Source of the DNA: an uncultured virus (IMG/VR IMGVR_UViG_3300036800_000502)
Lineage: Duplodnaviria > Heunggongvirae > Uroviricota > Caudoviricetes
Virus record (IMG/VR): IMGVR_UViG_3300036800_000502
Strand: one strand, 5' to 3'
Length of the DNA stretch: 64,000 nt
In this document: positions 13,537 to 59,670 of the stretch, piece after piece
How positions within the stretch are numbered: position 1 is the first letter of the stretch
How the letters are laid out: each line of letters begins with the position of its first letter
Program-made: the position numbers and the translations under genes
The notes under the pieces: model-generated
What the model was told of the DNA's origin: nothing
Databases searched by the model: none
The model's input: only the letters and a program-made list of their open reading frames with translations

Positions 13537-14496
13537 ATGAGCCCAGCCAATCCCAACCGCCAGCCCCCTGGCACCCCCGTCGGGGGCCAGTTCGCCGCCA
13601 GGGCCAGCTCCGAGGCCGCCCACCTGGCCCTGGTCCCCGACGAGCGGGCCGAGTCATCCAGAGCCGAACTCCACAAAACCCTGGAGGCCGCCTGTGCCAG
13701 GGTGGAGGCGCGGACCGCCGAGGCGACCACGGACAAGGAGACATTCCCGCTGCCCTGGGCGTTCGGCGCATTGCCGCCGGCCGAAGTCGCTGCGGCGCAG
13801 TCCGTCGGTCTCGACCCCGGCAACTACCAGGTCTTCCGCAAGTCAGGTGCCACCCACGACGAGTTGCGGGCTGCCCACCTGGCCGGGATCGACCCCTACG
13901 TCTACGGAGCCGCTCGCTGGCGGCGGGCGACCAACCATGAGGAGCTGATGGCGGCCCACCAGGCCGGGGTGAACAATCTCATCGGGTTCGCCGACGCCCG
14001 CACCAACGGAGCCACCGCGGCCGAGGTGATGGAGGCCCACGCCGGCGGAGCAAACCTGCACGACTATGCCGTCGCCCGTAACTTTTCGGAGTACGAGGAC
14101 GGGGCCACCCACCAAGAGGCGATGGAGGCCCACGCCGCCGGAATCGACCTCGACAACTACGCCAGAGAGCTCCACCACGGATCTACCCACGAAGAGATCG
14201 TCGCCGACGCGGCTGATAAGTGCGTTAGGGAGTTTGAGAATCAGCCAGTGTTGGCGCCTGGCGAGGTGGGGTGGCGGAAGGTGTGGGGCGCCAATGTCTC
14301 CCATATCCGCGCCGGAGACATTGTGCTAACCAGGTCGGGCGATGCGGTAGAGACCTCCTACGTTGCCGATACGTTTGAGTCCAAGTCGGCACCGATGCGC
14401 CGTGGCTTCGTGGATGGCGGAGGGAAGCGGTTTACCCTGGGGGCCATGAACGCTGTGATTGTGGTTCGCAAGGGAACGCACAACACGTTGGCCTAG
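13537..14496 (+). CDS. GGQFA-tagged protein with ~26-aa helical repeats
   Basis: N-term MSPANPNRQPPGTPVGGQFAARASSEA; GATHxExxxAHxAG repeats; motif A upstream. Confidence 0.85.
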   Translation: MSPANPNRQPPGTPVGGQFAARASSEAAHLALVPDERAESSRAELHKTLEAACARVEARTAEATTDKETFPLPWAFGALPPAEVAAAQSVGLDPGNYQVFRKSGATHDELRAAHLAGIDPYVYGAARWRRATNHEELMAAHQAGVNNLIGFADARTNGATAAEVMEAHAGGANLHDYAVARNFSEYEDGATHQEAMEAHAAGIDLDNYARELHHGSTHEEIVADAADKCVREFENQPVLAPGEVGWRKVWGANVSHIRAGDIVLTRSGDAVETSYVADTFESKSAPMRRGFVDGGGKRFTLGAMNAVIVVRKGTHNTLA

Positions 14497-14582
14497 TGCC
14501 CCTCCTCGTAGTCCTCACTGGGCATGGGCCTCTCTTCTCTAGTTTCTAGCGTCTAGTCAGTACGGCGCGTGAGGGAGCCGGT

Positions 14583-15902
14583 TCACGCCACCTTCATCCG
14601 ACTCGTCGATCGTCCTTTGGGCCGGATGGCGGCCAGGTGCGCCCGCCGCTCGGGGGACATGGGAGTGGCGGGCGGCATCCCGGCCCGGGCCAGCACCACG
14701 GCGTCGAGGTCGGGCCCGGGTCCGGTCTTCAGCCAATGTGGCACCCCGTACAGCAGGTTGGCGTTGTCGAGCACGGCTAGGGCCGCGGCGGGGTCCGCCG
14801 GCGAGAACGGGACAGCGTACGGGTCGAGGAGGTCGACCGGCCGCCAACGGGCTGCGGGCGGGCCGGTCGGGAGTTCGGCCCGTAGCCCGATAAACGCTGG
14901 ATCCACCATGTCCAGGGCGGGGAACCAGTCGCCCCAGCGGGCGAACGCCATCCGCTCCGCCACCCTGGCCAGGTTCCTGTCCATCGTCGAGTTCGCCTCT
15001 TCGGCCAAGATCTTCTTGGTGACGGCCCCGTTGTCTCTTTGGGTACCAGGTGGGGACACGTCGACGAAGATCACCATTAGCGATTTGGTTCTATCGGCGA
15101 CCAGGGCCGAGGCCCATCTGGCCACTTTCTCCCGCAGTTTGGTCGAGGTCGACGCCGTGGCCTCGACCGCAATTCGGAATCCATCGGGGCGGACCCACAC
15201 TGCATCGGCCGCCCGTTTGGAGTTCTGCTCCACCGCCCGGGTCTCGCCGAACAACAGCGGAAACCCACCGAGCTGCTCGCCGAAGACCGATCCGATCGGG
15301 CAGAACTCAGCCACCCGGAGCGACAGCTCCGTGGTCAAGAGATTGTGACGGTCAAACTGGCTGCCGACGGTTAGATCTTGGCCGGCGGTGACGCCTACCC
15401 ATTCGGCGTAGGTCAGTCGGTGCCCGAGGTCGGTCGACTTTGCCTGGGGATCCAGGCGATACAGCTGGGGGAGGGGTGAGGAGGCGGGCATCATTCCGTT
15501 GACGATGGTCCCTTTTTGGATGAGCTCGGCCGCCCACAGCAGCTCGAGGTCGGAGATGGCGCTGCGGCCCTTCCTCCCGGTGATAGCGGTGAGTTGAGGC
15601 CCGGTGGCTGTTCTCCACAACTCGGTGGCCGCCAGTTGAGCCAACCGTCCGGGTTTAGTGACGAGGAGATCGAGGGCCTCTTTGGGTTCCCACTTCTTTT
15701 CCGACACCCGCATCCGCCCGGCGCCGGCGGCTTCACCTCGACGGAAGGAAGACCGGGACGCCCAAGCAACCGACACCCCACCGACACCCGACGCCCACAG
15801 GTTCGCCCAGAAAGGGTCGATCCGATTGGCGGCGTCGACCCCTTCGGTCGGACAAGCCGAATCCAGTTCGGACATCGGGAGGGGGTCAGATCGAGTCACC
15901 AT
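14583..15902 (-). CDS. Replication-relaxation family-like protein (putative relaxase)
   Basis: N-terminal HTH-like segment, DRHNL, ADAVW...IAVEAT...REKVARW PD-(D/E)XK-type motif; directly downstream of the coupling protein. Confidence 0.6.
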   Translation of the reverse strand: MVTRSDPLPMSELDSACPTEGVDAANRIDPFWANLWASGVGGVSVAWASRSSFRRGEAAGAGRMRVSEKKWEPKEALDLLVTKPGRLAQLAATELWRTATGPQLTAITGRKGRSAISDLELLWAAELIQKGTIVNGMMPASSPLPQLYRLDPQAKSTDLGHRLTYAEWVGVTAGQDLTVGSQFDRHNLLTTELSLRVAEFCPIGSVFGEQLGGFPLLFGETRAVEQNSKRAADAVWVRPDGFRIAVEATASTSTKLREKVARWASALVADRTKSLMVIFVDVSPPGTQRDNGAVTKKILAEEANSTMDRNLARVAERMAFARWGDWFPALDMVDPAFIGLRAELPTGPPAARWRPVDLLDPYAVPFSPADPAAALAVLDNANLLYGVPHWLKTGPGPDLDAVVLARAGMPPATPMSPERRAHLAAIRPKGRSTSRMKVA

Positions 15903-18382
15903 GTCTCGAAGGCCTCGGAGGACGACTGGTAGGGATCGGCCGCCGGTGCCAGGCGGAGCACGTCAACCGGGCCCGGCCCTACGTCCAGGGGGATGGGCAA
16001 TCCGGACCCGATGGGATACCCCTGGTCGGGAGCGAACTCGTCGGGGTGGTCACCCCACCACCCCATCCGGATCGGCACCGGAGGTTGGAGCCGCCCGCCG
16101 GCGGTGGCCCGGAGGATGGCGTGGAACTTCTCGAGGTTCCCGATGTCCGACTTCGACCAGTCGCCGCCACCGATGGTGAGCTGGGCCAGAGCCTCGTCGA
16201 TGACCTGGGGATCGGACTGTTGGAACCAGAAGACGGTGGCGAAGCCGCGGAGGGCGGACCGCACCAGGGGAAGGAGCTGTTCAGGGCTCTGGGTGGCGAA
16301 CACCAGCCGGACCCCGTAGGACCGGCCCTGGTTCCGGAGCCAGTCGACCACCTCGGCCGACGTCTTGGCCAACAGCGAGAGCTCGTCGGAGAAGATGGAG
16401 ACCGACCGACCGGCGTCCTTCCACCCCGAGCAAGTCCGCATGATGGCTTCTCGCAGCGAGTAGGCCAGCATGGCGGAGATGACGTTGGCCAGCCGTTCGT
16501 CGGTGATGGCCCCGGTCTGGGTGACCCCGGAGTTGAAAATAACCGCCTGGTGACCCTCCAGGATGTCCGCCCAGTTGAGTTTCCTCCGGCCGGGTGACCA
16601 CCAGCTCTTCTCCAGCACCAGCACCAGCATCTTGTTCCGGGCCGACTCGGTGATGGTCCGGCGCTGGGCCGGGGTCACCTTCTCCCCGTAGAAAGGGGCA
16701 AGGAGACGGACGGCTTGGGCGAGCTCGTCGTAGGTGGGGTCGGTCGGGTCCATATGTTCCGCGTGGCTGCCGATGTCTCCGGCCAGGGCGACCCCCACTT
16801 CGTCTCCCATCCCTCCCAAGAGGATGTGGGCGAGGCCGACCGGTGACACCTCGCCGGGGATGACCGACGTGGCGGTGGCCGCCACCATCGGGGGGCAGGC
16901 GAACGCAGCGGTCAGGGTGGCCGACAGCGCCTCGAAACTCCGGCCCTGGATCTGGTCGGCGCCGAACGCATAGGTCATGGCTGCAATGAAAAAACTGGCT
17001 CGCTGGGTGGCGCTCCCGGGGATGTCCAGCATGTCGATCGCCGGGGTGTCGGGGTTGCCCAGCTCGACCAGGGTGGCGGTGTCGCCAACCCGGTCGGACC
17101 ACTGCTGGTAGGTGGCCGCTCCCTCGCCTTTGTTCTCGAACGCGATCAGGGTGTTCCTCGCCCCCGGCCGGTCCGGTCTGCCGGACGGGGCGACCCGCTC
17201 AAGGCAGTTCCACGCCCACAGGTTCGACACCAGCACCGACTTGCCGGAGTCGGGGATCCCCATGGCGGAGACCCCTCCGAATGCCTCGGCCGCATCTATG
17301 TGGACGGGGGTGTCCCCACCGAACCCGACCACCGGCCCGATGTCGTCGAGGAGGGCGGCGGGGGCCGACCGGATCTGGGTCGACGCCACGTCCGATGCGG
17401 TGCCGGCGTGGGGTGACACCAGCCCGATCACCATGGCTGGCCCCATGAGGAAAGTGGTCCTGGCCAACGGATAGTCGCCGTCGGTCGCCGGTCGCTCTCG
17501 ACCGTTGGCGACGGGCCTGGATCGACGGGGCCGGCGCGGTGGGATTGTCCGGCGGGCGGGGGAAGGGAACTGGCCGCCAGCCAGCTGGGCCTCGAGCCGT
17601 TTGGCCCCGGTCGGGATCCAGCCTTTGCCGGCGACAAACCCGGCCAGGGCGACCACACTCCCGGCCAGCGAAGACAGCAGCCAGTGGTGGGTCTCGATGC
17701 CTCCGGCCAGCCACGCCCCGAGGCCCAGCCCGTAGAGGATGAGATCGACCGGCGGCGTCCGGTTGGTGCGGATCACGGTGTCGATGTCGAAGCCAGGGAT
17801 GGCTGAGCTCAACTGGTGCAGCAGGTTGGACACGTCGTCGGGGGAGGACGCCCCGGCGTAGATGGAAGCGACCAGAGATTCGCCGTCGTTGCTGTAGTGG
17901 GTGACGGCCCCGTCCAGGCGGTGGTGGAACCATCGGCGGGTGACCCGCATCTCGTTCCGGGTCGGCGGCCGTAGCGAAATTGCCACCCAGTTACCTGGCT
18001 CCAGGATGTGGCTGAGAAGGAGGGCCACTTCGGACGGATCGCCGCCGGCCTGGGTGTCCCGGGAGGCGTACTCGGTGGGTGCTGCCACCAGCCAGCCAAC
18101 GCTCGGGGTTGACGAGAGATCGGGGAGTGAGTCGGCCGGTTCGCTCTGGGCGCCGAGGGCGGAAGTCAGGCTGGTGATGACGTGGCCGCCGGCGCCGCCC
18201 TGGTTGGTAACAGCGAAGCTCAACATGCCCCGGTCGTTGCGAGTGGCCACCAGAACCGCTCCCCTGGAGGTGCCGACCGCGGCTCCGAACGGCTTGGCTC
18301 GCTGAACCACCACGTCCCGAAGCGGTGGGTCGCCGCCGGATCGGGTGAGGCGGAAGACGTGCTGGGGATTTGCTCGGGCCAC
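15896..18382 (-). CDS. TraD/VirD4-like type IV coupling ATPase
   Basis: Two TM helices, Walker A GIPDSGKS, IFSDEL, RNQGRSYGV...ATQSPEQL; start GTG 18382 after motif B. Confidence 0.75.
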   Translation of the reverse strand: MARANPQHVFRLTRSGGDPPLRDVVVQRAKPFGAAVGTSRGAVLVATRNDRGMLSFAVTNQGGAGGHVITSLTSALGAQSEPADSLPDLSSTPSVGWLVAAPTEYASRDTQAGGDPSEVALLLSHILEPGNWVAISLRPPTRNEMRVTRRWFHHRLDGAVTHYSNDGESLVASIYAGASSPDDVSNLLHQLSSAIPGFDIDTVIRTNRTPPVDLILYGLGLGAWLAGGIETHHWLLSSLAGSVVALAGFVAGKGWIPTGAKRLEAQLAGGQFPSPARRTIPPRRPRRSRPVANGRERPATDGDYPLARTTFLMGPAMVIGLVSPHAGTASDVASTQIRSAPAALLDDIGPVVGFGGDTPVHIDAAEAFGGVSAMGIPDSGKSVLVSNLWAWNCLERVAPSGRPDRPGARNTLIAFENKGEGAATYQQWSDRVGDTATLVELGNPDTPAIDMLDIPGSATQRASFFIAAMTYAFGADQIQGRSFEALSATLTAAFACPPMVAATATSVIPGEVSPVGLAHILLGGMGDEVGVALAGDIGSHAEHMDPTDPTYDELAQAVRLLAPFYGEKVTPAQRRTITESARNKMLVLVLEKSWWSPGRRKLNWADILEGHQAVIFNSGVTQTGAITDERLANVISAMLAYSLREAIMRTCSGWKDAGRSVSIFSDELSLLAKTSAEVVDWLRNQGRSYGVRLVFATQSPEQLLPLVRSALRGFATVFWFQQSDPQVIDEALAQLTIGGGDWSKSDIGNLEKFHAILRATAGGRLQPPVPIRMGWWGDHPDEFAPDQGYPIGSGLPIPLDVGPGPVDVLRLAPAADPYQSSSEAFETW

Positions 18383-19204
18383 GCTTCCCACCATGCGGCG
18401 ACTGGTCAGGCTCGGTGGAGCTGGGTGATCTTCCCGCAATATGGGGAAAATATGCGGTCGACCGCGTAGTTATGCAAGGTGGCAATTCCCCGGATGGCTG
18501 CCCCACAAATCGCCGCCTGGTTCTCCCCCTTCTCTCCGGTCCCCTCCGTTACGTGGTCGAAGACGTGGCCGACGGCAGGTTGGGATCAAAAAATCGGGTC
18601 GTGGACCTAAGCCAACAGCCGTGACTCAAGTTGTGGTGGATGAAGAAAGAAACCGGTGGATCAGGTCATGGGACGAGGTGTACGAGGCGGGGCATGGTGT
18701 CACGAAGTGACGTGGCCTGCGGCCGGCTGCGATGGATGGAAGTTAGGGAACTGGACGTGGGCGAAGCCGGGTGGCGCGGAGCGGATGAAATGGACGAGTT
18801 GACCGGTGGTGGTGCAGGGCACGAAGTGGATCTCTCGGTGGGACGTTGCGTCGGTGACGTGGTGGTGCGGAACGGTGTACTGGACGGAGCGAGATGGTGC
18901 GCCGGGGGCTGGTCGTTGCGGAGCAAGAAGATGGCGTGGTGGACCGAGGAGAAAGCGGGATGGGCCAGGAGGGAGCTCAATGGGACTGGGGGAACAAGGC
19001 GGTCCTCGATGAGTCGCAACGGTCGCTTTGATGCGAGCCCCGGAGGGGTGAGCATCTTAAGGTCCCCACTGGTCCGAGACCCCCTGTCATTCCGGCTAGC
19101 GCCAGGGCGGCCCGCCGGGCCTGGGTGAGATCGGAAGAGGTTGGTTGGTTGCTGTCCCACACCCCTACAGAGGGCGGCGGTTTTGCCGATCCGCCGGCCG
19201 TGCC

Positions 19205-26535: not shown

Positions 26536-26591
26536 GGTCGATGCCCGGAAAAACCCACCCCCGGCTCCGATCGGCGCTGCATAGAGGGGCC

Positions 26592-32033: not shown

Positions 32034-32041
32034 ACGAGACT

Positions 32042-45066: not shown

Positions 45067-45114
45067 CCTTCTCGCCTCCGGCGAGCCGTCCGATCCGCCG
45101 CCCTCTCTCTAGGC

Positions 45115-46635
45115 GTGAATCCCAACCGCCAGCCCCCAGGCATACCGACCGGTGGCCAGTTCGCCGGGAGGTGCAACCCGGAATCCGACATCCAGCTCTC
45201 CGCCTGCGCCCGTCCCCAACGAACCCGCTACCCGGGGCTGGTCAGGTTGGACACCGACGTCTCGGCCACCCTCGACGCCATCCGCTCCGTAGGCGGCCGA
45301 CCTATGCTCGTCGGCGGCTGCGTCCGCGACCCGCTCATCGACCCCCAGATCTCATCGAAGGACATCGACATCGAGGTCTACGGATGCTCCGACTTCGACG
45401 CACTTTCCACCGCGCTCGAGTCCGTCGGCGAGGTGGACGAGGTGGGCAAGAGCTTCGGGGTGCTGAAGGTGACCGTCGGCAACCAAGACCTGGACGTCTC
45501 GCTGCCCCGACGGGACTCCAAGGTCGGAGAGGGCCATAAGGGGTTCGACGTGCAGCCGGACGCTGACCTGTCCGAGGTCGAAGCCTCCGGGCGCCGTGAC
45601 TTCACCATCAACTCACTGATGTGGGACCCCGAGACCGAAGAGGTCGTCGACTGCTGGGGCGGCCTGGAGGACCTCGAAGCCGGGGTGCTCCGGCACACCA
45701 CCGACGCCTTCTCCGAGGATCCGCTCCGGGTGCTGCGCGGGGTGCAGTTCGCCGCCCGGTTCGGCTTCCGCCTGGCGCCCGAGACCGCCGAGCTGTGCCG
45801 GGGCCTGGCTGGCTCCTTCGCCGAGCTCCCCACCGAGCGGGTCTGGGGTGAGATCGAGAAGATCGGCAGCAAGGGGGTCCACATCACCGCCGGCCTGGCC
45901 ACCCTCCGGCAGTCCGGCTGGGACCACCACTTCCCCCAGATCACCGCCACCTACGGCGTCGAGCAGGACCCGCACTGGCACCCCGAAGGCGACGTGGCCA
46001 TCCACACCGGCCTGTCCGCCGACGCCGCGGCCGTCCTGGCCGACCAAGCCGGCCTGACCGGAGAGGACCGGTTCGTCATCGTGATGGGGACCCTGGTCCA
46101 CGACTTCGGCAAGCCGGACCACACCCAGCACGTCACCCACCCCGACGGCTCGGTGAAGATCACCTCCCACGGACACGCCGCCGGCGGCGTCCAACCGGCA
46201 GCCGACTTCTTGTCCAGCGTCGGCTGTCCCCGGCACCTGGTCGAGCGAATCACCCCGATCGTCCGAGAGCACATGTGTACGGCGTCTTCGGACCCCACCC
46301 CCGCCGCGGCACGCCGGTTAGCCCGCCGGCTGGTGCCGGCCACCCTGACCGAGTGGGCGCTGGTGGTCGGTGCCGACCACGCCGGGCGAGGACCCGCCAG
46401 CGGACCCAACCCGGCCGACGCCTGGATGGCGCTGGCACGGAAATCGGGCGTCACCGAGCGGCCGGCCAAGGGGCTGCTCACCGGGGACCACCTGATCGCA
46501 GCCGGCATGGCCCCGGGCCCGGAGTTCAGGCCGATCCTGGCCTCAGCCCTGGCCGCTCAGGACGACGGCGTGTTCGAGGACGAGGCGGGAGCTCTCGCCT
46601 GGATGGGACGAAGGTTCTCCAGCTCGTCGGCGTGA
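45115..46635 (+). CDS. GGQFA-tagged CCA tRNA nucleotidyltransferase with HD domain
   Basis: LVGGCVRD, DIDIE, RRDFTIN, EDPLRVLRGVQFAARF, ERVWGE, HPEGDV..H, HDFGK. Confidence 0.92.
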   Translation: MNPNRQPPGIPTGGQFAGRCNPESDIQLSACARPQRTRYPGLVRLDTDVSATLDAIRSVGGRPMLVGGCVRDPLIDPQISSKDIDIEVYGCSDFDALSTALESVGEVDEVGKSFGVLKVTVGNQDLDVSLPRRDSKVGEGHKGFDVQPDADLSEVEASGRRDFTINSLMWDPETEEVVDCWGGLEDLEAGVLRHTTDAFSEDPLRVLRGVQFAARFGFRLAPETAELCRGLAGSFAELPTERVWGEIEKIGSKGVHITAGLATLRQSGWDHHFPQITATYGVEQDPHWHPEGDVAIHTGLSADAAAVLADQAGLTGEDRFVIVMGTLVHDFGKPDHTQHVTHPDGSVKITSHGHAAGGVQPAADFLSSVGCPRHLVERITPIVREHMCTASSDPTPAAARRLARRLVPATLTEWALVVGADHAGRGPASGPNPADAWMALARKSGVTERPAKGLLTGDHLIAAGMAPGPEFRPILASALAAQDDGVFEDEAGALAWMGRRFSSSSA

Positions 46636-48961: not shown

Positions 48962-50023
48962 ATGGCCACCACCCAACGCCCCAACCGGGTCCACGCCGGC
49001 ATCCCGACCGGCGGGCAGTTCGCCACCGACCCTCACCCCGAGGCCGAGCTGGTGCTGGAGGATCCGGCTCCCGAGGTGCCAACGCCCCTGCGTAATCAGC
49101 ACGGTCCCGTCATCAACCCGAGCGACCCAGAGCTGGTCAGACAACTCGGTTCGGCTCTGGCTCCGCATGGAGGTGAGTCGTTTGTCACGCCCGACGTGGC
49201 GGATGATGCCGATACCAACCGCCTGGTTGTATCCGGTCATATTTGGCCGCAGAAAGTAGTCCGGGCCAAAGCCGCCGAGCACAACGCCTGTCACGAAGTT
49301 GCAGCCGACATCCATTCTCAAGACCCTTCTCGGTTCACCCATATCTACGGGTACGCCCTCACTGCCGACGACGGGATGTGGAGATCCCACAGCTGGGTCC
49401 ATGACCGCCGAACAGATCAGCTGATTGAACCAACACCTTCAAGTCGAGCAAAGTATTTTGGCGTAGCTTTGTCGGACCCCAACCGAAGCCACGAGCCACC
49501 CGAGCCGGGCCCCATGTCATCGAACAGCCCCGAAGTCCAGGCGGGCAAGGTCTACGACCGGGTGGTGGTCGAAAGCGACGGTTACTCCACCACCTTTCAC
49601 CGGCGGCGTGAGGACGTGTTCGCGGAGTGGCCCTACGCAATGCGTTTCCAGGCCAACCGGCCACTGACCGACGACGAGGCCGTCCACTTCGCTGGACTGG
49701 TTGGCTACGCCTACCGGTCCACGATCGCCGGCGAGCCCATCGGCATGGGGGAGCGGGACACCCCCTACTCGCTGGTCGTGTCCTCCGACATGACCAAAAC
49801 CCGGCGGGACGACCTCGGTATGGCTCTCGAAGAGTTCGAGGACACCCTGCCCGTCGTCGTCCGCGACGGCTCACCGGTCCGCAAGACCGACCGGGCGGGC
49901 GCCGGCACCAAGGGAACCCGGCTCATCGAAGGGATGGGCAAAGACCTCCGATTCGAGATCTACTACGACCAGGCCACCGGACACCCAGCGAGTTGGTCTC
50001 TGAAGGATGGCGTGGCAGCCTGA
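48962..50023 (+). CDS. GGQFA-tagged two-domain hypothetical protein
   Basis: MATTQRPNRVHAGIPTGGQFATDPHPEAE; ACH...GYAL...WRSHSW...IEPT...YFGV domain. Confidence 0.8.
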   Translation: MATTQRPNRVHAGIPTGGQFATDPHPEAELVLEDPAPEVPTPLRNQHGPVINPSDPELVRQLGSALAPHGGESFVTPDVADDADTNRLVVSGHIWPQKVVRAKAAEHNACHEVAADIHSQDPSRFTHIYGYALTADDGMWRSHSWVHDRRTDQLIEPTPSSRAKYFGVALSDPNRSHEPPEPGPMSSNSPEVQAGKVYDRVVVESDGYSTTFHRRREDVFAEWPYAMRFQANRPLTDDEAVHFAGLVGYAYRSTIAGEPIGMGERDTPYSLVVSSDMTKTRRDDLGMALEEFEDTLPVVVRDGSPVRKTDRAGAGTKGTRLIEGMGKDLRFEIYYDQATGHPASWSLKDGVAA

Positions 50024-50077: not shown

Positions 50078-50422
50078 ATGAGCCGCGATCAACACCCGAG
50101 CCGGGTCCAGGCCGGAGTCCCCACCGGTGGCCAGTTCGCCCCCAGCTCCCACCCTGAGTCGACAGTCGAACTGTCCGCACCACCCGCCGGGAGGTCGTCC
50201 TACGACCCGTACCGCCGGCTGGTTGGCGCCCCGTCGCCCCAGAACGAGCCGGACCAGTTCTCCAACGAGGACATCCGGGCCGAGGTCAAGTACCTGATGG
50301 CCCTGGACCGCCGGCACGGCTCCCACCCACTCCGGACCTCTGCGTGTCTGCGGCTGCTGTCGGTCATCGACGAACGGCAGACCGGGCGACCGGCCGGGTT
50401 GCCGCCCTCCATAGGGACATGA
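50078..50422 (+). CDS. GGQFA-tagged small protein
   Basis: MSRDQHPSRVQAGVPTGGQFAPSSHPES; motif A upstream. Confidence 0.8.
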   Translation: MSRDQHPSRVQAGVPTGGQFAPSSHPESTVELSAPPAGRSSYDPYRRLVGAPSPQNEPDQFSNEDIRAEVKYLMALDRRHGSHPLRTSACLRLLSVIDERQTGRPAGLPPSIGT

Positions 50423-51222
50423 GCCCCACCAACCCCAACCGGGTCCAAGCCGGGACCCCTGCCGGCGGCCAGTTCGCCGCCAAGACCAACCCCGAAGCCG
50501 GTCCGCTTTCCCGAGTGCTGTCTGAGCAACTCGAGACGGCGAAAGGTGAGGGGCTGGTGTTCTGCGCCGACTGCGAGGCCTGGTTGCAGCCATACGAGGC
50601 CGAAGCGTGCGTGCATCCGAAATCGGAAGTCGAGTTGGACCCAGCGAGCGACAGCTCCGCGCCCGACGACGGCCGGCTCCTCCCGCCTCAGAGAATCCAG
50701 GAGATCTGGGACTCGCTCCGGGGGCGCACCCGCTACGGCCCCGACTACGACCGAGGCGTGGCTTCCGCCGTGGCCGACAGTCTTCTCTTTCTCGAGCGGG
50801 AAAACGCCGCCGCAGCAACCCACTACGCCCAGCTCGCCCGCTGCCGGGCCGGCGAGATCACCTGGGACGAGTTCTGCCAGGTCGACCCCTACCGGGCCGG
50901 GACTGAAAAGGGCCAAGCCGCCCGGCAAATAGAAACCGCTGCCATCACCGCTGATGTGGGGGACGAAGTGAGCTGGGAGGTGGCCAGGGCCCTCCCCGTC
51001 CACACCGAGGTGAGCGCCGAGTTCTCGGCTACCCCCGGGCGCCACTACCGGCTGATGGCCCGAGACCTGCCCCAGATCGGCACCAAACAGGACCGTCGGT
51101 TCACCAACCTCGACACCGGATTCGAGGTGTTCCTCCCCGCCGATGGCCTGCGGCCACTGGTAGGCCGGGAGGCCGGCATCGAGCCGATGTTCACCCGCCT
51201 GGTCATCACCAAAACCACCTGA
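50419..51222 (+). CDS. GGQFA-tagged hypothetical protein
   Basis: MSPTNPNRVQAGTPAGGQFAAKTNPEA; motif A upstream. Confidence 0.8.
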   Translation: MSPTNPNRVQAGTPAGGQFAAKTNPEAGPLSRVLSEQLETAKGEGLVFCADCEAWLQPYEAEACVHPKSEVELDPASDSSAPDDGRLLPPQRIQEIWDSLRGRTRYGPDYDRGVASAVADSLLFLERENAAAATHYAQLARCRAGEITWDEFCQVDPYRAGTEKGQAARQIETAAITADVGDEVSWEVARALPVHTEVSAEFSATPGRHYRLMARDLPQIGTKQDRRFTNLDTGFEVFLPADGLRPLVGREAGIEPMFTRLVITKTT

Positions 51223-54098: not shown

Positions 54099-54689
54099 AT
54101 GACCAACCGTGTCCACAAAGGCGTCCCCACTGGAGGCCAGTTCGCGGGCGATACCCACCCGGAAGCCGGCTCACTTGCCCTCGACGGGGCGGCCGTCCGA
54201 GCTGACCATACCGACCTGATCGTCGGCCTTGTCCGGCACACCAACCCTGACGGTTCGCTCGGGGGGAGGGTGGCCGTCACTGCCCAGGTCTCCGACTCCG
54301 CCACCGTCGGACCCAAGGCCCGGGTATTGGGACACGCCGTCGTCAAGGACTCCGCCACCATCACCGGGCACGCCACCGTGGCCGGTAACGCAGTTATCTC
54401 CGGGAAGGCCACCGTCTCCGGCGAGTCGGTGGTGAGTGGTTCCGCCCAGATCACCGACCACGCCCTCATCTCGGGCAGCGCCCACGTCACCGACCACGCC
54501 ACGGTCGACCAGTGTGCCTTCGTCGGGGAGCACGCCTTTGTGGGCGGTGGTGTGAAGGTCACCGGGCTGGCCATCGTCGGCGGTGACTCATCTATCCGGG
54601 ACAACGCCCTGATCTCTGGAGCCGCCATCGTCGGTGGTGAGACCAACATCCACCTGGACATGGTGCTCGCCGGGGTGGATGTTCGATGA
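54099..54689 (+). CDS. GGQFA-tagged left-handed beta-helix (hexapeptide repeat) protein
   Basis: MTNRVHKGVPTGGQFAGDTHPEA; (A)xVxxxA hexapeptide repeats. Confidence 0.85.
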   Translation: MTNRVHKGVPTGGQFAGDTHPEAGSLALDGAAVRADHTDLIVGLVRHTNPDGSLGGRVAVTAQVSDSATVGPKARVLGHAVVKDSATITGHATVAGNAVISGKATVSGESVVSGSAQITDHALISGSAHVTDHATVDQCAFVGEHAFVGGGVKVTGLAIVGGDSSIRDNALISGAAIVGGETNIHLDMVLAGVDVR

Positions 54690-54858: not shown

Positions 54859-55404
54859 ATGAGCAACCCCAACCCCAACCGGCAACCCCCGGGAGTCCCG
54901 ACCGGTGGGCAGTTCGCTCCCAGCTCCCACCCGGAGTCGGAGGTCGAGCTCTCCACCGGACCCGACACGATTTTCCAAACTGCCAACGGGTACCTGCTGT
55001 GCGTCCGGCACGCTGAGGAGTGGCGGAGCGGTGGGAACAACGTGGCTATGTGGCCAGCCGGCGCCCATGAGTTGGCTGAAGGCGGCTACCTGTGTATCGA
55101 CTGCGCCAACGATCTCATGGAGCGCACCGACGATGTGGACGCACCGAGAGACGAGCCGGTGGCGGATGGCGATGAGTCAGCCACCCCCGGGCCCGAACTC
55201 GTCGAGCTGGTCAGCCGGACAGGAGAGTCGTTACAAAGCTGGAGTGGAGAGACGGTCGAGGAGATCGGGTCCAAGCTGACCTGTGACGAAATGGAAGAGC
55301 TGGCGGGGTTGTTCACCAGTGTCGGACGTGAGGACCTCACCATTGCGCTCACCGAGGCGCACGCCGCCGCGGACGAACCGGAAGACAGGCACTTCCGTGG
55401 GTAG
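54859..55404 (+). CDS. GGQFA-tagged hypothetical protein
   Basis: MSNPNPNRQPPGVPTGGQFAPSSHPESE. Confidence 0.8.
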   Translation: MSNPNPNRQPPGVPTGGQFAPSSHPESEVELSTGPDTIFQTANGYLLCVRHAEEWRSGGNNVAMWPAGAHELAEGGYLCIDCANDLMERTDDVDAPRDEPVADGDESATPGPELVELVSRTGESLQSWSGETVEEIGSKLTCDEMEELAGLFTSVGREDLTIALTEAHAAADEPEDRHFRG

Positions 55405-55705
55405 CCAGAGCCCAGCCAACCGCCGGCCCCAAGGCACCTCCGCCGGCGGCCAGTTCGCCGCCAAGACCAGCCCCGAGTCAGAAGTCGATCTGGTTGAGAT
55501 GGAATGCGAATGGTTCGTCGGATGCCGCAACGAATCGGTCGGCATGGTTGAGCACCCCACCTTGGGCGACGTCGAGATTTGCCAGGAGCACGTCGTCTGG
55601 CTGGAGACCGACTTCTCCCCCACGAAGATGATCCCGCCGATGGCAGCCAGAGCGGCCCAGCCGAGAGGATCCCGTCGATCGGCGGAAGCGCCGCCCTCTT
55701 TGTAG
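55397..55705 (+). CDS. GGQFA-tagged small Cys/His protein
   Basis: GTG start; SQSPANRRPQGTSAGGQFAAKTSPESE; CEWFVGC...HP...CQEH. Confidence 0.75.
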   Translation: MGSQSPANRRPQGTSAGGQFAAKTSPESEVDLVEMECEWFVGCRNESVGMVEHPTLGDVEICQEHVVWLETDFSPTKMIPPMAARAAQPRGSRRSAEAPPSL

Positions 55706-55707: not shown

Positions 55708-56346
55708 ATGAGCTCAACCAATCCCAACCGTCAGCCCCAGGGGATACCCGCCGGAGGCCAGTTCGCCGCCAAAACCAGCGCCGAGTCCGAAGTCGAACTG
55801 GCCCTGCCGACGGTCGAGACCAAAGCCAACGCCTTCGACGCCATTCATGCGGTCCTGAACGGGACGGAGTGGCACGCCGAAACGATCGAGCGGGTGGCCG
55901 AGATCGTCACCGCCGCCGGGAGCCCGATCGCAGAGCCCGGCGATGACGACAAGGAGGGGCCGGTCTACTCCGGAGGCGAAGCCTGCATGGAAACCCACGA
56001 TTCCTACGAGCGGGCCGCTGCCGCCGTCCAACCCGAATCTCCCGCGACACGGCCGGATCCCATCCCGATCCGACTCGACATCCCCGAGGACCGGTGGGAG
56101 GCGCACGGAGACGAAGCCGACGAACGCTCGTTCCTCCATTGCGTTGTCCAGGTCTGCGGCACCGACTTCGTGGCCGATGCCTACGGCGTCCACGAGGACG
56201 AGAACGGTCTCCAGACCGCCGACTGGGAAGAGTTCGGCGATGAGCAGCTCGACAACATCTACAACGTCGCCCGGGCCGAGGGACAGCTCGAGACGGTGAC
56301 GATCGGTGGCCGGGAGTACGTCCTGGTCATCACGCCTCTCGGCTAA
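55708..56346 (+). CDS. GGQFA-tagged acidic protein
   Basis: MSSTNPNRQPQGIPAGGQFAAKTSAESE; motif A upstream. Confidence 0.8.
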   Translation: MSSTNPNRQPQGIPAGGQFAAKTSAESEVELALPTVETKANAFDAIHAVLNGTEWHAETIERVAEIVTAAGSPIAEPGDDDKEGPVYSGGEACMETHDSYERAAAAVQPESPATRPDPIPIRLDIPEDRWEAHGDEADERSFLHCVVQVCGTDFVADAYGVHEDENGLQTADWEEFGDEQLDNIYNVARAEGQLETVTIGGREYVLVITPLG

Positions 56347-57658: not shown

Positions 57659-59595
57659 GCATCGGCGTGGTGACGCGATTGGGGACGACCGTCGATGCTG
57701 TCGACCTGTTCTGCGGGTACGGCGGCACGTCGGGGGCCGTGCGGGCAGCAGGGGCGGAGATCACGGTCGCCGCCAACCACTCGCAGCTGGCCATCGAGTG
57801 CCACGCGGCGAACTTCCCGGGCGTAGATCATCGCCGGGCGGACTTGTCGGACCCCCACAGCGCCGACTACATCGACCCGGCCGACCTGCCGGCAGCGACC
57901 CTGTTGGTGGCAAGCCCCAGTTGCAAATTCCACTCCATGGCGAACGCCAAAAAGGTCTACGCCCGTGGTCCCCAGTCGGCGCTCGCCGACGAGGACTTCG
58001 ATGAGGTGGCCTACGCCAACTCCGAGCGGTCCCGGGTCACGATGCTGTGCCCGCTCCGCTATGCCGCCAAGCACCGGCCCGAGCTGGTGTTGGTGGAGAA
58101 CGTCGTCGAAGCAGCGAAGTGGGGTCCGGACCGGGACGGGAGCACGTTCCGGTGGTGGTTGGCTGAGTGGGAGAAGCTCGGCTACGAGCACGAGACGCTG
58201 TTCTTCAACTCGATGTTCTTCCCACCGTGCCCGCAGAGCCGGGACCGCATGTACGTGGTCTGTTGGCGACGAGGGAACCGTCAGCCCGACCTCGACTACC
58301 GACCCAGAGCTCAGTGTACGAGCGACCGGTGTCAGGGGACGCTCGTCGATGCGGTCCAGACCTGGAAAACGCCGACGGCTGCGTGGCCCGTGGCCCGGTG
58401 GGGCAAGTACGACCAGCAGTACACCTACAACTGTCCTGTGTGCCATAGCCGGGTACACCCGGTGGCGTGGCCGGCGTACAGCGCCATCGACTGGAGCAAC
58501 CTCGGACCCCGCATCGACGAGCGGGACGGGTTGGGAATGAACCCGCTGGCCCCAGCCACGATCGAGCGGATCCGGCGGGGCGTGACCAAGTTCCGGGGAG
58601 GCCCACCGCTGCTCATCCCGGCGAAGGCGACGTGGGGCGTCGACCGGCCTGTCTCCGGCGTGTTCCCCACCCAGACGAGTGAAGGAGAGCGGGGCCTCGT
58701 CATCGACGGCGCCGTGGTGCCGCTTCGCACCAACGGCAAAGCTGCCGGGGGCGGCGATTCGATGCGAACGGTGGTGGCGGGCAACGTCGGACATGCAGTG
58801 ATCGGTCGCCCGTTCGTAGTCAAGAACAACGGTGCGATCGACGAGGCGAAGTACCGGGCACACCCGATCACCGACCCTCTCGGAGCACTGACCGCCCACC
58901 CGTCCCAGCAGCTCGCCATCGACGGTGTGACCGTGGTGGCTGCCGGGCACACGTTCGAGCGAGCGGGGTCGGCGTGCCGGACCCGGCCCCTGGCAGAGCC
59001 TCTCTTTACCCAACACGGATCGGAGGCGCTCGGGTTCGCCCATAGCCCCTTCGTCACGCCACTGCGGGGTGGCGGTTCGGTCGACGGTCAGTCGGCGGTG
59101 GCGGACGCCCTCGGGACCATCTCGGCCGGTGGTCTCCATCACGGACTCACCTCACCGGCGCTGTTCGAGAAGCTGAACGGCGGCCCGGGCGACACCGCCT
59201 GGCATACCATGGCCGACCCCCTGAACACGGTGACCTCCCGGGACACGCACGGGATGATCGTGTTGCCCTGGCTCGAGCAGTGGCGCTCGAACCCGGTGGC
59301 GATCACCGAGCAACTGGCGACGGTTATGAGCCGCCTGCGGCACTCACTGGGCTCGATGAAGGCAGACCTCGAGCCGGTCACCGACGAGCAGCTCGGGGCG
59401 ATCCGGTTCCGGATGCTGAGCCCGGACCCCGAGCTGCGCCGGGCGATGGCGTTCGCCGACGACTACATCCTGCTCGGAAACAAGACCCAGGTGACCAGTG
59501 GCCTTGGGAACGCAGTGACGCCACCGGTGGCCACTTGGATCACGGAACGGTGCCTGGCAACGCTGGGGGGAGCGGCAACAGAGAGGGTTGCATGA
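57655..59595 (+). CDS. DNA (cytosine-5)-methyltransferase with long variable region
   Basis: DLFCGYGG, SPSC, VENV, PQSRDR, FRML, GNAVTP; ATG 9 nt after motif A. Confidence 0.92.
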   Translation: MSIGVVTRLGTTVDAVDLFCGYGGTSGAVRAAGAEITVAANHSQLAIECHAANFPGVDHRRADLSDPHSADYIDPADLPAATLLVASPSCKFHSMANAKKVYARGPQSALADEDFDEVAYANSERSRVTMLCPLRYAAKHRPELVLVENVVEAAKWGPDRDGSTFRWWLAEWEKLGYEHETLFFNSMFFPPCPQSRDRMYVVCWRRGNRQPDLDYRPRAQCTSDRCQGTLVDAVQTWKTPTAAWPVARWGKYDQQYTYNCPVCHSRVHPVAWPAYSAIDWSNLGPRIDERDGLGMNPLAPATIERIRRGVTKFRGGPPLLIPAKATWGVDRPVSGVFPTQTSEGERGLVIDGAVVPLRTNGKAAGGGDSMRTVVAGNVGHAVIGRPFVVKNNGAIDEAKYRAHPITDPLGALTAHPSQQLAIDGVTVVAAGHTFERAGSACRTRPLAEPLFTQHGSEALGFAHSPFVTPLRGGGSVDGQSAVADALGTISAGGLHHGLTSPALFEKLNGGPGDTAWHTMADPLNTVTSRDTHGMIVLPWLEQWRSNPVAITEQLATVMSRLRHSLGSMKADLEPVTDEQLGAIRFRMLSPDPELRRAMAFADDYILLGNKTQVTSGLGNAVTPPVATWITERCLATLGGAATERVA

Positions 59596-59670
59596 TGCCA
59601 GGCAGGGACTCCGACCGGCGGCCAGTTCGCCGGCAAGACCAACCCCGAGGCCGCCGTCATCGCCGGATGG
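59596..59670 (+). pseudogene. Start-less relic of the GGQFA tag
   Basis: CQAGTPTGGQFAGKTNPEAAV immediately after the methyltransferase TGA, in the DinG reading frame. Confidence 0.7.

What the first reader, a model, noticed from the sequence alone, without database searches (positions are those of the whole stretch)
13537..59670. Shared N-terminal 'GGQFA' peptide tag on ten unrelated proteins: candidate cargo-targeting system
Seen: ORFs starting at 13537, 43293, 45115, 48962, 50078, 50419, 54099, 54859, 55397 and 55708 all begin with [N/S]R[V/Q/R]xxG[V/I/T][P/S]xGGQFAxxxx[P/S/A]E[A/S]. After the tag they are unrelated: CCA-adding enzyme, DUF7007-like domain, beta-helix, helical repeats and Cys/His mini-proteins. 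The Gly codons vary synonymously (ggg ggc, ggc ggc, ggt ggc, ggc ggg, gga ggc, ggt ggg), so selection acts on the peptide rather than the DNA. The tag is not hydrophobic, so it is not Sec/Tat-like, and it ends at a fixed-position Glu. Established: T4 internal proteins use an N-terminal capsid-targeting sequence removed by a Glu-specific prohead protease, and conjugative coupling ATPases recognise substrate signals. Inference: this is a portable address label that loads cargo into a particle or transfer machine for delivery to a new host.
Basis: partly seen in the sequence, partly recalled or inferred. Interest (0 to 1): 0.92.

Follow-up and report, generated by a model that had tools for sequence, protein, structure and literature searches.

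The report
Shared start tag on plasmid proteins
Ten unrelated proteins of this actinobacterial plasmid-like element begin with the same floppy 30-residue peptide, which also heads well over a thousand other mobile-element proteins and most likely labels them for a common fate, possibly delivery into a new host cell.

Summary
Ten plus-strand genes start with M..NRxxxGxPxGGQFAxxxxPE[AS] (10 regex matches against 0 in 50 codon shuffles). The proteins behind the tag are unrelated to each other, and the invariant residues use mixed synonymous codons.

An eleventh copy at 59596-59670 is an intergenic fossil.

The tag is a large family with no Pfam, NCBIfam or PHROG model. A profile of it finds 1774 cluster representatives among 1.84 billion proteins, and the match lies at the very N-terminus in 147 of the best 150.

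It sits only on mobile elements of Actinomycetota: megaplasmids such as pYJN5-1 (37 copies) and chromosomal islands. It heads soluble, acidic and mostly unknown proteins. The few with a recognisable domain look like establishment or counter-defence functions.

AlphaFold models the tag as coil.

The capsid/prohead-protease reading is not supported: the tag is almost absent from viral collections, and no capsid or encapsulin gene lies on a tag contig.

The transfer-machine reading is the best available but unproven. Tag arrays lie directly downstream of a TrwB/HerA-like ATPase and a membrane FtsK-like ATPase in three elements. However, machine and tags each also occur without the other.

Two earlier notes of this scan describe the same or a related tag on other DNA.

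The parts
13537..14496 (+). Tagged gene 1 (319 aa). Tag covers residues 1-~32; passenger has no family.
43293..44360 (+). Tagged gene 2 (355 aa), passenger DUF7007. This is the only family shared by all six tag-bearing elements compared.
45115..46635 (+). Tagged gene 3 (506 aa, GTG start), passenger a CCA-adding enzyme/poly(A) polymerase head plus HD domain.
48962..50023 (+). Tagged gene 4 (353 aa). Passenger unknown; its C-terminal half resembles a tagged pYJN5-1 gene.
50078..50422 (+). Tagged gene 5 (114 aa). AlphaFold gives coil for residues 1-43, then three helices.
50419..51222 (+). Tagged gene 6 (267 aa), passenger unknown.
54099..54689 (+). Tagged gene 7 (196 aa), passenger a left-handed beta-helix (hexapeptide repeats).
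54859..55404 (+). Tagged gene 8 (181 aa), passenger unknown. No upstream GCCGCCCTC word.
55397..55705 (+). Tagged gene 9 (102 aa, GTG start overlapping gene 8), Cys-rich small passenger. No upstream word.
55708..56346 (+). Tagged gene 10 (212 aa), passenger unknown.
59596..59670 (+). Fossil tag (CQAGTPTGGQFAGKTNPEA) with no start codon, lying between the methylase stop and the DinG start.
15896..18439 (-). TrwB/HerA-class ATPase (847-aa ORF; the database gene call is 776 aa). It has Walker A GIPDSGKS and two membrane-like helices around residues 240-290 of the ORF. This is the candidate coupling protein of the element.
14583..15902 (-). 439-aa protein whose gene overlaps the end of the ATPase gene. 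It accompanies the ATPase in every relative examined and belongs to no family.
6258..9881 (-). Membrane FtsK/SpoIIIE-like ATPase (1207 aa, six membrane-like segments, Walker A GLSGGGKS).
4479..6236 (-). Second, soluble FtsK-like protein (585 aa). Its best weak matches are TcpA (PDB 6o1w) and Streptomyces plasmid TraB.
13518..13527 (+). Example of the upstream word [CT]GCCGCCCTC, which begins 19 nt before the start codon. It also occurs at 43274, 45096, 48943, 50059, 50400, 54080 and 55689 (8 of 10 tagged genes), and before six untagged genes.

Best explanation
The tag is an intrinsically disordered N-terminal short linear motif of about 30 residues: M-x3-5-[NA]-R-x3-G-x-P-x-G-G-Q-F-A-x5-[ED]-x3-L, followed by a flexible acidic linker. 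A family of actinobacterial conjugative megaplasmids and integrated elements attaches it to an arsenal of soluble accessory proteins.

I think it is most likely an address label read by the element's own DNA-transfer apparatus: a TrwB/HerA-like ATPase with its 439-aa partner, and the membrane FtsK-like ATPases. On this reading, establishment and counter-defence proteins are handed N-terminus first to the mating channel and reach the recipient with, or just ahead of, the DNA.

Shown here:
- The tag exists and is selected as a peptide.
- It is strictly N-terminal and modelled as coil.
- It is confined to mobile elements and fused to very many unrelated soluble proteins.
- It is clustered beside the ATPase genes in several elements.

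Inferred, not shown:
- That any of these ATPases binds it.
- That tagged proteins leave the donor.
- That they act in the recipient.
For: 1. Selection is on the peptide. Invariant R, G, G, G and E use 2-4 synonymous codons at about background frequencies, in 10 window copies and 29 pYJN5-1 copies.

2. Position is strict. In the best 150 of 1774 profile hits, 147 matches begin at residue 23 or earlier. The other three (P0060, P0166, P0122) have an internal Met or Val just before the tag, or are two genes read as one. On pYJN5-1 a start codon lies 6-11 codons upstream of the tag core in 28 of 29 copies.

3. AlphaFold with a 66-row alignment gives no secondary structure for residues 1-43.

4. The tag occurs only in mobile DNA:
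- 37 hits with E<0.01 on the 440-kb plasmid pYJN5-1.
- In five genomes, all matches fall in islands or on one or two contigs, for example 16 within about 85 kb in G004 and 9 within about 36 kb in G003.
- 388 of 401 sampled Micrococcaceae genomes have none.

5. The cargo is soluble. 2 of 224 tagged proteins have a membrane-like segment, against 107 of 428 untagged ORFs of pYJN5-1. The median pI of the passengers is 4.65.

6. The few recognisable passengers are of the kind that plasmids deploy on entry: SSB, DUF262/ParB-like nuclease, DUF2958, DUF7007, HD_4, AbiEii-like nucleotidyltransferase, Fic and a CCA-adding enzyme.

7. Context. In pYJN5-1, G156:C45 and G276:C3 the order is ATPase, 439-aa gene, NERD, FtsK-like gene, then an array of 13-17 tagged genes, all on one strand.
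- The ATPase homologue is present in 4 of 5 tag-bearing genomes outside that sample, as is the FtsK-like protein.
- In 401 Micrococcaceae genomes, 7 hold both tags (13 genomes) and the ATPase (15 genomes), where about 0.5 would be expected by chance.

8. The ATPase model (pLDDT 88) matches HerA (E 9e-10) and the coupling protein TrwB (E 1e-8, TM by target 0.55-0.60). NCBI names its homologues type IV secretory system conjugative DNA transfer family protein.

9. Precedent. An F-type T4SS transfers plasmid-encoded ParA, ParB, SSB, PsiB and PsiA to recipients (PMC8406263, abstract in the listing). Proteins delivered with mobile DNA are a general theme (PMC5512222, passages read).
Against: The coupling to the machine is loose.
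- Five genomes hold a full-length ATPase homologue but no tag, even when up to 150 candidates per genome were scored.
- Six of the 13 tag-bearing Micrococcaceae genomes show no ATPase homologue. These include G047 (13 tags) and the complete chromosome G003 (9 intact tagged genes).
- Strong FtsK-like homologues occur in 9 genomes, of which only 3 have tags.
- The co-occurrence could therefore reflect shared ancestry of one element family rather than function.

Other points against:
- A single tagged gene sits on a 71-kb plasmid with a different, classical actinobacterial T4SS.
- Known T4SS signals are C-terminal or internal (recalled), so an N-terminal one would be without precedent.
- If the soluble FtsK-like protein is a TraB-type double-strand DNA pump (weak NCBIfam match), no protein transfer is known for that route (recalled).
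- No relaxase or mating-pore gene was recognised in the window, and PLSDB types pYJN5-1 as non-mobilizable.
- The function of most passengers is unknown: 125 of 138 have no Pfam domain.
Confidence: 0.4

Rival explanations
1. Cytoplasmic docking motif without transport. The tag tethers many accessory enzymes to one hub, so that they act together on or near the element's DNA. The hub could be encoded by the element (for example its ParA-like ATPase, replication or partition complex, or plasmid nucleoprotein) or by the host.
For: - The tag is a disordered linear motif followed by a linker, which is the usual form of docking peptides.
- Tags persist in islands that lack the ATPases (G003) and on a plasmid with another T4SS. 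That fits a reader that is not the transfer machine.
- Several passengers act on DNA or RNA: SSB, a ParB-like nuclease and a CCA-adding enzyme.
Against: - No untagged protein family is shared by all six tag-bearing elements compared. The only universal family, DUF7007, is itself tagged.
- No host protein carries the motif in 388 of 401 sampled genomes, so it does not copy a host motif.
- Strict N-terminal placement is not needed for simple docking.
Confidence: 0.25
2. Stability or processing tag. It would be an N-terminal degron, or a site cut by a protease, that limits these proteins to a short time window after entry, or activates them.
For: - Terminal, disordered and conserved peptides are the usual form of degrons (recalled).
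- Placement is strictly N-terminal.
- pYJN5-1 encodes two Clp-N-domain proteins near the ATPase cluster and an S8 peptidase. The window encodes a protein with a peptidase A4 domain.
- The F after GGQ would become a destabilising N-terminal residue if cut there; this is an inference of mine and is untested.
Against: - None of the peptidase or Clp-N genes is conserved between the window and pYJN5-1.
- The fixed acid is followed by Pro in 24 of 29 pYJN5-1 copies and preceded by Pro in 8 of 10 window copies, which is a poor context for cleavage at that residue.
- No host proteins share the motif.
Confidence: 0.12
3. The tag would be a capsid- or compartment-targeting sequence that loads cargo into a phage head, gene-transfer-agent-like particle or encapsulin, and is removed by a Glu-specific protease.
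For: - There is formal likeness to T4 internal-protein targeting sequences (recalled): a short N-terminal leader with a fixed Glu on unrelated cargo.
- Two earlier notes of this scan state that the core of a related tag occurs in phage head proteins. I could not reproduce this.
Against: - 1 confirmed locus among 2.9 million viral contigs.
- 0 matches in 50,697 phage records for two different tags.
- 0 of 11 tags match any PHROG at E<=1.
- PF05065 capsid: none in pYJN5-1, G004 or G156, and only on other contigs in G276 and G001.
- Encapsulin PF04454: found only on another contig of G156.
- No structural phage family among 66 window proteins.
Confidence: 0.03
4. By-product of gene expression or of descent. 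The conserved 5' coding stretch would be kept because it belongs to a shared promoter or leaderless-translation cassette, or would simply be the inherited constant end of one diversifying gene family, with no reader.
For: - 8 of 10 tagged window genes, and 16 tagged pYJN5-1 genes, carry a fixed-distance upstream word.
- Tagged genes form tandem arrays that look like cassette turnover: the fossil at 59596, and partial internal duplications in P0154 and P0179.
Against: - The same upstream word drives 6 untagged window genes and 87 untagged pYJN5-1 ORFs, so expression does not need the tag.
- Codons vary while residues stay fixed.
- The tag is kept across classes (Actinomycetes and Acidimicrobiia) while the upstream word changes completely and the passengers are unrelated.
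Confidence: 0.07

Closest known systems
Plasmid-encoded proteins transferred through conjugative T4SSs (pED208: ParA, ParB1, SSB, ParB2, PsiB, PsiA; PMC8406263 and PMC11288057, of which I saw only the search listing and the start of the abstracts)
   Same: Establishment-type proteins of a conjugative element, SSB among them, that may travel with the DNA. An ATPase of the TrwB/HerA class is encoded next to them.
   Different: Those substrates share no common sequence tag as far as I recall, and known T4SS signals are C-terminal or internal. Here a conserved N-terminal peptide marks up to 37 proteins per element, and transfer is untested.
Capsid-targeting sequence of T4 internal proteins with prohead protease gp21 (recalled)
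   Same: A short N-terminal leader with a fixed Glu on unrelated cargo proteins.
   Different: There is no phage context. The tag is three times longer. The Glu is flanked by Pro. No prohead protease was found among the window's families.
Polyvalent proteins and their solo-domain versions in phages and conjugative elements (Iyer et al. 2017, PMC5512222; passages read)
   Same: A diverse set of enzymes thought to be delivered with invading DNA. The methylase, DinG and SNF2 genes in the same window recall the methylase-helicase theme.
   Different: Here each activity is a separate small protein with its own copy of one tag. I searched the paper for 12 words about signals, leaders, linkers and processing, and the 24 passages shown (of 55 places with a hit) mention no such tag.
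N-terminal signals of type III secretion substrates (recalled)
   Same: N-terminal, about 20-30 residues, disordered, on soluble effectors of many folds, and threaded N-terminus first.
   Different: T3SS signals have no conserved sequence, whereas this tag has seven invariant residues. No injectisome is known in these bacteria; I did not search for one.
Type VII secretion: the signal of EsxB bound by an FtsK/SpoIIIE-type domain of EccC (recalled)
   Same: It is a precedent that FtsK/SpoIIIE-class ATPases read short peptide signals. This element encodes two such proteins, one with six membrane segments.
   Different: T7SS signals are C-terminal on helical WXG-type proteins. NCBIfam matches to EccC/EssC are far below cut-off (21-23 bits against 346-509).
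Anti-defence islands in plasmid leading regions (PMC11541004; I saw only the listing and the start of the abstract)
   Same: One-strand block with ssb, parB, an orphan methylase, helicases and many small unknown genes.
   Different: The origin of transfer is unknown here, so 'leading' is not established. As far as I recall, no shared peptide tag is described for those islands.

Membership tests
T4-type capsid-targeting sequence / prohead-protease system | Encoded by a phage that also encodes capsid, portal and prohead protease | tested here: not met
   No such family among 66 window proteins. PF05065 is absent from pYJN5-1, G004 and G156, and lies on other contigs in G276 and G001. 1 locus in 2.9 million viral contigs. 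0 phage records.
T4-type capsid-targeting sequence / prohead-protease system | Leader ends at a protease site after Glu | tested here: inconclusive
   The Glu is fixed (10 of 10 in the window; 25 Glu and 4 Asp in 29 pYJN5-1 copies). However, it is followed by Pro in 24 of 29 pYJN5-1 copies. Cleavage itself cannot be tested here.
Type IV secretion substrate signals | C-terminal or internal signal (charged tail, BID, XVIPCD, relaxase TS domains) | tested here: not met
   The tag is N-terminal in 147 of the best 150 hits.
Type IV secretion substrate signals | Occurs together with a type IV coupling protein | tested here: inconclusive
   - Present: a TrwB/HerA-like ATPase in the window, pYJN5-1, 4 of 5 further genomes, and 7 (one of them partial) of 13 tag-bearing Micrococcaceae genomes.
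- Against: 5 genomes have the ATPase but no tag, and 6 have tags but no ATPase.
Type IV secretion substrate signals | Transfer to a recipient that depends on the signal | not testable with these tools
   Needs a mating assay with reporter fusions.
Type IV coupling protein (TrwB/VirD4), for the 847-aa ORF | Nucleotide-binding domain of the HerA/FtsK/TrwB fold with an all-alpha insertion and N-proximal membrane helices | tested here: inconclusive
   - Foldseek gives HerA E 9e-10, TrwB E 1e-8 with TM by target 0.55-0.60, and Cag-beta 7e-8.
- Walker A and membrane-like helices are present.
- No Pfam or NCBIfam model matches the window protein.
- The T4CP name comes from NCBI's annotation of homologues.
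Type VII secretion signal | WXG100-type helical hairpin with a C-terminal YxxxD/E-type signal | tested here: not met
   The tag is N-terminal coil. No WXG family appears among the window proteins.
Sec or Tat signal peptide | Hydrophobic core (Sec) or twin-arginine motif plus hydrophobic core (Tat) | tested here: not met
   The alignment shows a single Arg and no hydrophobic run.
Polymorphic-toxin cassette (constant N-terminal trafficking part, variable C-terminal toxin, immunity gene) | Each variable gene is followed by a small immunity gene | tested here: not met
   Tagged genes follow each other directly, for example G276:C3 47175-48134, 48139-48867, 49654-50310, 50307-50822 and 50829-51581, and window 54859/55397/55708.
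Any curated protein family covering the tag | A Pfam, NCBIfam or PHROG model that matches residues 1-35 | tested here: not met
   - Pfam at E<=0.01 and NCBIfam at E<=1 on the full proteins: no family covers the tag.
- PHROGs at E<=1 on the 11 tags alone: 0 families.

The most novel reading that the evidence does not exclude
The tag is the export signal of an unrecognised protein-delivery branch of actinobacterial conjugation. A set of HerA/FtsK-class ATPases (a TrwB-like ATPase with its 439-aa partner, plus a six-helix membrane FtsK-like protein and a soluble one) would thread up to about 37 different soluble effectors per element, N-terminus first, into the recipient, to disarm its defences before or while the DNA enters. 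This would be the first sequence-defined N-terminal translocation signal of a conjugation system, and it would name more than a thousand candidate anti-defence effectors at once.
Probability: 0.3. Interest if true: 0.9.

Novelty: new variant of a known kind. Interest (0 to 1): 0.76.

Why it matters
If the tag is a delivery or sorting signal, its profile becomes a simple search key. It would pull out an entire repertoire of proteins that actinobacterial plasmids and integrated elements deploy together: at least 1774 clusters, more than 90% of them without any known domain.

It would also make an open question directly testable in culturable soil bacteria such as Paenarthrobacter sp. YJN-5 with pYJN5-1: do Gram-positive, high-GC conjugation systems inject proteins, and how are those proteins recognised?

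Tried and rejected
- Complex prediction. TrwB-like ATPase (776 aa, 64-row alignment) with the tag (11-row alignment): no answer, score 0.01 against a mark of 0.32, and controls not run. This is not evidence either way.
- Whole-genome search of the window's own genome: none is held.
- DNA-level relatives among plasmids for 26541-46000: none.
- Short-peptide tblastn found only 4 plasmid records. This was too insensitive, so profile searches replaced it.
- The idea that the tag also occurs on Agrobacterium/Rhizobium DUF7007 proteins, because tblastn alignments began at residue 17: rejected. The Agrobacterium protein has no tag.
- The idea that the methylase, the fossil tag and DinG form one read-through fusion protein: rejected. 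0 of 120 DinG homologues carry a tag, the long homologues contain inteins instead, and the database gene call starts at about 59758.
- The idea that the 585-aa FtsK-like protein has a degenerate P-loop like EccC's substrate-binding domain: dropped. It reads GSGKG in the window but GAGKS in pYJN5-1.
- Search for a reader by co-occurrence. The TrwB-like ATPase, the FtsK-like protein and DUF7007 were each searched in the same 401 genomes, and none tracks the tag strictly.
- Search for a different recurrent N-terminal peptide in two tag-free relatives (80 kb each of G242 and G296): none.
The claim could therefore not be examined this way.
- ESM Atlas look-up of the tag: only unnamed actinobacterial clusters, with scores under 0.9.
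- Sequencing runs: one DNA holder, probably the source soil metagenome, and no RNA holder listed.
- Literature. 'GGQF' anywhere: 162 papers, and none of the 25 listed is relevant by title. 'DUF7007': 0 papers. Arthrobacter/megaplasmid/conjugative/N-terminal motif: none of the 12 listed holds 'N-terminal motif'.

Full report
**The observation**

Translating the ten named starts gives ten proteins that begin M-x(2-6)-[NS]-R-x3-G-x-[PS]-x-G-G-Q-F-A-x5-E-[AS].
- In an alignment of these ten plus one further copy, G12, G16, G17, Q18, F19, A20 and E26 are invariant. R8, P14 and L30 are kept in at least 90% of rows.
- A strict regular expression for the motif matches 10 times in the six-frame translation and 0 times in each of 50 codon shuffles.
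- Behind residue 36 no two of the ten proteins resemble each other (no BLASTP pair with E<0.1).
- Pfam recognises DUF7007 (43293), a CCA-adding/poly(A) polymerase head with HD domain (45115) and a left-handed beta-helix (54099). The other seven get nothing. NCBIfam adds nothing that covers the tag.
- The invariant residues use mixed synonymous codons at about the window's background frequencies. Arg uses 4 codons, the three Gly use 2-4 and Glu uses 2. The same is true of 29 copies on a related plasmid.

An eleventh copy at 59596-59670 lacks a start codon and follows the methylase stop directly. The database gene call for DinG has 739 aa, which puts its start at about 59758, and 0 of 120 DinG homologues carry a tag. 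This copy is an intergenic fossil of a lost tagged gene.

**What the window is**

The window is 66% G+C. It is 64 kb of an 82.6-kb contig. The only sequencing run that holds it is a soil metagenome. No whole genome is held for it.

Its genes are those of a large actinobacterial plasmid-like element:
- two FtsK/SpoIIIE-like proteins;
- a ParA-like ATPase, ParB, a PD-(D/E)XK nuclease, SSB and WhiB;
- a class II ribonucleotide reductase;
- a C5 methylase, and DinG and SNF2 helicases.

A 1028-aa protein has a weak PHROG match to primase.

The nearest named records:
- The 440-kb plasmid pYJN5-1 of Paenarthrobacter sp. YJN-5 and similar 400-600-kb plasmids of Pseudarthrobacter and Curtobacterium.
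- pYJN5-1 shares about 25 proteins with the window at 28-51% identity.
- For the ATPase and DinG, the closest relatives include contigs of Acidimicrobiales MAGs.

**How large the tag family is**

- A profile of the eleven window tags finds 38 places on pYJN5-1, 37 of them with E<0.01.
- Against 1.84 billion cluster representatives it finds 1774 proteins at E<=0.001.
- A word-indexed search of 5.8 billion proteins found 444 among the 8000 candidates it scored.
- In the best 150 the match begins at residue 23 or earlier in 147. The three exceptions have an internal Met or Val just before the tag (P0060, P0166) or are two neighbouring genes read as one (P0122).
- On pYJN5-1 a start codon lies 6-11 codons before the tag core in 28 of 29 regex copies.

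I scanned 138 of the 150 against Pfam. I left out the four window proteins and eight proteins of 44-79 aa. Only 13 had a domain at E<=1e-5: DUF7007 three times, DUF2958 twice, HD_4 twice, and SSB, MORN_2, an HTH, DUF7226, LRV and hexapeptide repeats once each.

Other passengers seen:
- DUF262, an AbiEii-like nucleotidyltransferase and another CCA-adding enzyme.
- On pYJN5-1, a Fic domain. There 4 of 26 proteins scanned had any domain; of the 29 regex copies I left out two genes that span locus borders and one short fragment.

Tagged proteins are soluble and acidic.
- 2 of 224 have a membrane-like segment, against 107 of 428 untagged ORFs of pYJN5-1.
- The median passenger pI is 4.65 and lengths run from 63 to 500 aa (the ORFs come from my own crude gene caller).

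AlphaFold, given a 66-row alignment whose only shared part is the tag, models residues 1-43 as coil with pLDDT about 70-77. The tag is therefore a linear motif and not a small domain.

**Where it occurs**

A pattern scan of one genome per species found 33 loci.
- Named genera: Arthrobacter, Pseudarthrobacter, Oerskovia, Cellulomonas, Nocardioides, Nakamurella and Nostocoides.
- Also Acidimicrobiaceae and unnamed Actinomycetes MAGs.
- Two stray MAG contigs are labelled Cyanobium and Rhodospirillales.

Within genomes the copies are clustered:

| Genome | Copies | Where |
|---|---|---|
| Nakamurella MAG | 33 | on two contigs |
| Acidimicrobiaceae chromosome | 16 | within about 85 kb |
| Arthrobacter chromosome | 9 | within about 36 kb |

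In an even sample of 401 Micrococcaceae genomes, 13 have the tag at E<=1e-5. Only 19 candidates per genome were scored, and one of the 13, G136, is an unpublished genome. The Agrobacterium DUF7007 protein has no tag, and the window's own SSB is untagged while a relative's SSB is tagged. The tag is therefore an add-on that the domains do not need.

**Testing the particle reading**

| Test | Result |
|---|---|
| tblastn of one window tag against 50,697 phage records | 0 records |
| tblastn of a GGRF variant tag against the same records | 0 records |
| Tag alignment against 2.9 million viral contigs | 1 confirmed locus, covering only the 11-residue core |
| 11 tags against PHROGs at E<=1 | no family |
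| HK97-type capsid PF05065 | absent from pYJN5-1, G004 and G156; on other contigs in G276 and G001 |
| Encapsulin PF04454 | only on another contig of G156 |

In addition, the fixed acid is followed by Pro in 24 of 29 pYJN5-1 copies and preceded by Pro in 8 of 10 window copies. I regard this branch as not supported.

**Testing the transfer-machine reading**

The 847-aa ORF at 15896-18439 has a Walker A motif and membrane-like helices. Its AlphaFold model (pLDDT 88) matches HerA, the coupling protein TrwB (TM by target 0.55-0.60) and Cag-beta. NCBI names its homologues as type IV conjugative DNA transfer proteins. No Pfam or NCBIfam model reaches it in the window.

It is always followed by a 439-aa protein of no family. 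The 1207-aa FtsK-like protein has six membrane-like segments. The 585-aa one weakly resembles TcpA and Streptomyces TraB.

In pYJN5-1, G156:C45 and G276:C3 the order is ATPase, 439-aa gene, NERD gene, FtsK-like gene, then 13-17 tagged genes. All lie on one strand.

Co-occurrence counts:
- The ATPase is found in 4 of 5 other tag-bearing genomes, and so is the FtsK-like protein.
- In the 401 Micrococcaceae genomes the ATPase occurs in 15. Seven of these also have tags (one of them, G222, has only a 177-residue piece), where 13x15/401, about 0.5, would be expected by chance.

The coupling is not strict:
- Five genomes with the ATPase had no tag when re-searched with up to 150 candidates scored.
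- G003, G047, G051, G302 and G309 have tags but no ATPase.
- Strong FtsK-like homologues occur in nine genomes, of which three have tags.
- DUF7007 occurs in five genomes, four of them tag-rich, as expected for a cargo.

Among six elements compared protein by protein, the only family present in all is DUF7007, which is itself tagged. I therefore found no conserved candidate reader outside the ATPase set, and the ATPase set is shared with tag-free relatives. Two such relatives showed no alternative recurrent N-terminal peptide in 80 kb each.

**Reading**

The tag has four properties that argue for a sorting or delivery label over a by-product:
- It is strictly terminal, disordered and followed by an acidic linker.
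- It sits on soluble proteins of many folds.
- It is present in tens of copies per element, in arrays that turn over.
- It is absent from host proteins.

The gene neighbourhood and the kinds of passenger point to the conjugation apparatus and to functions needed on entry into a new cell. There is precedent for plasmid proteins, including SSB, being transferred by a conjugative T4SS (PMC8406263, abstract only), and for proteins delivered with mobile DNA in general (PMC5512222, passages).

The loose coupling, the survival of intact tagged genes in an island without the ATPases, and the lack of any binding evidence keep my confidence near 0.4. A cytoplasmic docking motif (0.25) and a stability or processing tag (0.12) remain live alternatives.

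The expression-artefact reading is weak. The element's fixed upstream word also precedes untagged genes, and it changes completely between lineages while the peptide stays the same.

**Earlier notes of this scan**

Two notes (e1-5753117, e1-5753139) describe a shared N-terminal R..G(G/x)xF tag on giant actinobacterial plasmid-like elements. They say it heads more than a thousand proteins, is linked to a dedicated promoter, and has a core present in phage head proteins. I treated these as leads.
- Size of the family: I confirm it independently.
- The promoter-like word: I had found it before reading the notes. I add that it is not exclusive to tagged genes.
- The link to phage head proteins: I could not reproduce it with the full-length tag.

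The scan has thus met this tag before on other DNA. I found nothing on it in the searchable literature.

Noticed in passing
window 13518, 43274, 44448, 45096, 46958, 48943, 50059, 50400, 54080, 55689, 56369, 57636, 12149 (+ strand): A fixed word, [CT]GCCGCCCTC, begins 19 nt before start codons.
- 14 exact cases with an ORF of at least 50 aa: 8 tagged and 6 untagged.
- Counting one mismatch, there are 58 matches in the window against 22.6 +/- 4.6 expected.
- On pYJN5-1 the same position holds GCCGCACACA at 103 ORF starts (93 at identical spacing; 3-4 in reversed-sequence controls). It is often preceded by a terminator-like hairpin.
- Oerskovia and Acidimicrobiaceae islands have yet other words.

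It looks like an element-specific compact promoter that gives near-leaderless mRNAs, read by an element-encoded factor.
   Followed up: partly
window 57517-59595 and 46911-48161: The upstream word suggests later true starts than the longest ORFs: 57655 for the methylase (646 aa) and 46977 for the 416-aa ORF (394 aa). An exact copy of the word at 51302 lies 39 nt inside the ribonucleotide reductase ORF that begins at 51263.
   Followed up: no
relatives: G276:C3 13525-17556; pYJN5-1 9154-12717; G004 island; G001:C2 and G002:C3 FtsK-like genes: Inteins interrupt the machinery genes of related elements.
- TrwB-like ATPase homologues of 1343-1415 aa carry LAGLIDADG or Hom_end domains.
- DinG homologues carry a Hint/LAGLIDADG insert in the P-loop region.
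- FtsK-like matches in G001 and G002 are split in the same way.
   Followed up: no
L001 (pYJN5-1 59045-90040) and L094 (270000-314000): The 440-kb plasmid encodes its own SecY and SecG, thymidylate synthase, DHFR, NrdF, a tRNA-dihydrouridine synthase, a GatB/YqeY protein, HU, a J-domain protein, a replicative helicase, an A24 prepilin peptidase, and Sir2, macro and NUDIX proteins. PLSDB nevertheless types it as non-mobilizable.
   Followed up: no
window 45115-46635; L062 3739-5223 (Arthrobacter island): There is a tRNA-repair theme in tag-bearing elements: a tagged CCA-adding enzyme in the window and on pYJN5-1, and an untagged RtcB ligase in the Arthrobacter island. This could be a counter to defence systems that cut tRNA.
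   Followed up: no
window 35420-35866 and homologues in all five other elements: A WhiB-like gene is present in every tag-bearing element compared. It is a candidate factor for the element-specific upstream word, as is the 283-aa protein at 19205-20056, which has a weak sigma-70 region 4 match.
   Followed up: no
proteins P0154 and P0179 (metagenomic relatives): Partial tandem duplications inside the tag (the GGQFAP core twice; the FAxxxNPES half twice) suggest that the tag consists of two separable halves.
   Followed up: no
window 17578 region (- strand), residue about 287 of the 847-aa ORF: The TrwB-like ATPase itself contains AGGQFPSP just after its membrane helices. The stretch is not conserved in 64 homologues, so it is probably chance.
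   Followed up: yes
L003 (Glutamicibacter plasmid pR912A) 27984-28349: A single tagged gene lies between IS elements on a 71-kb MOBF plasmid with a classical actinobacterial T4SS and several resistance genes. It shows that tagged genes move between unrelated plasmid backbones.
   Followed up: partly
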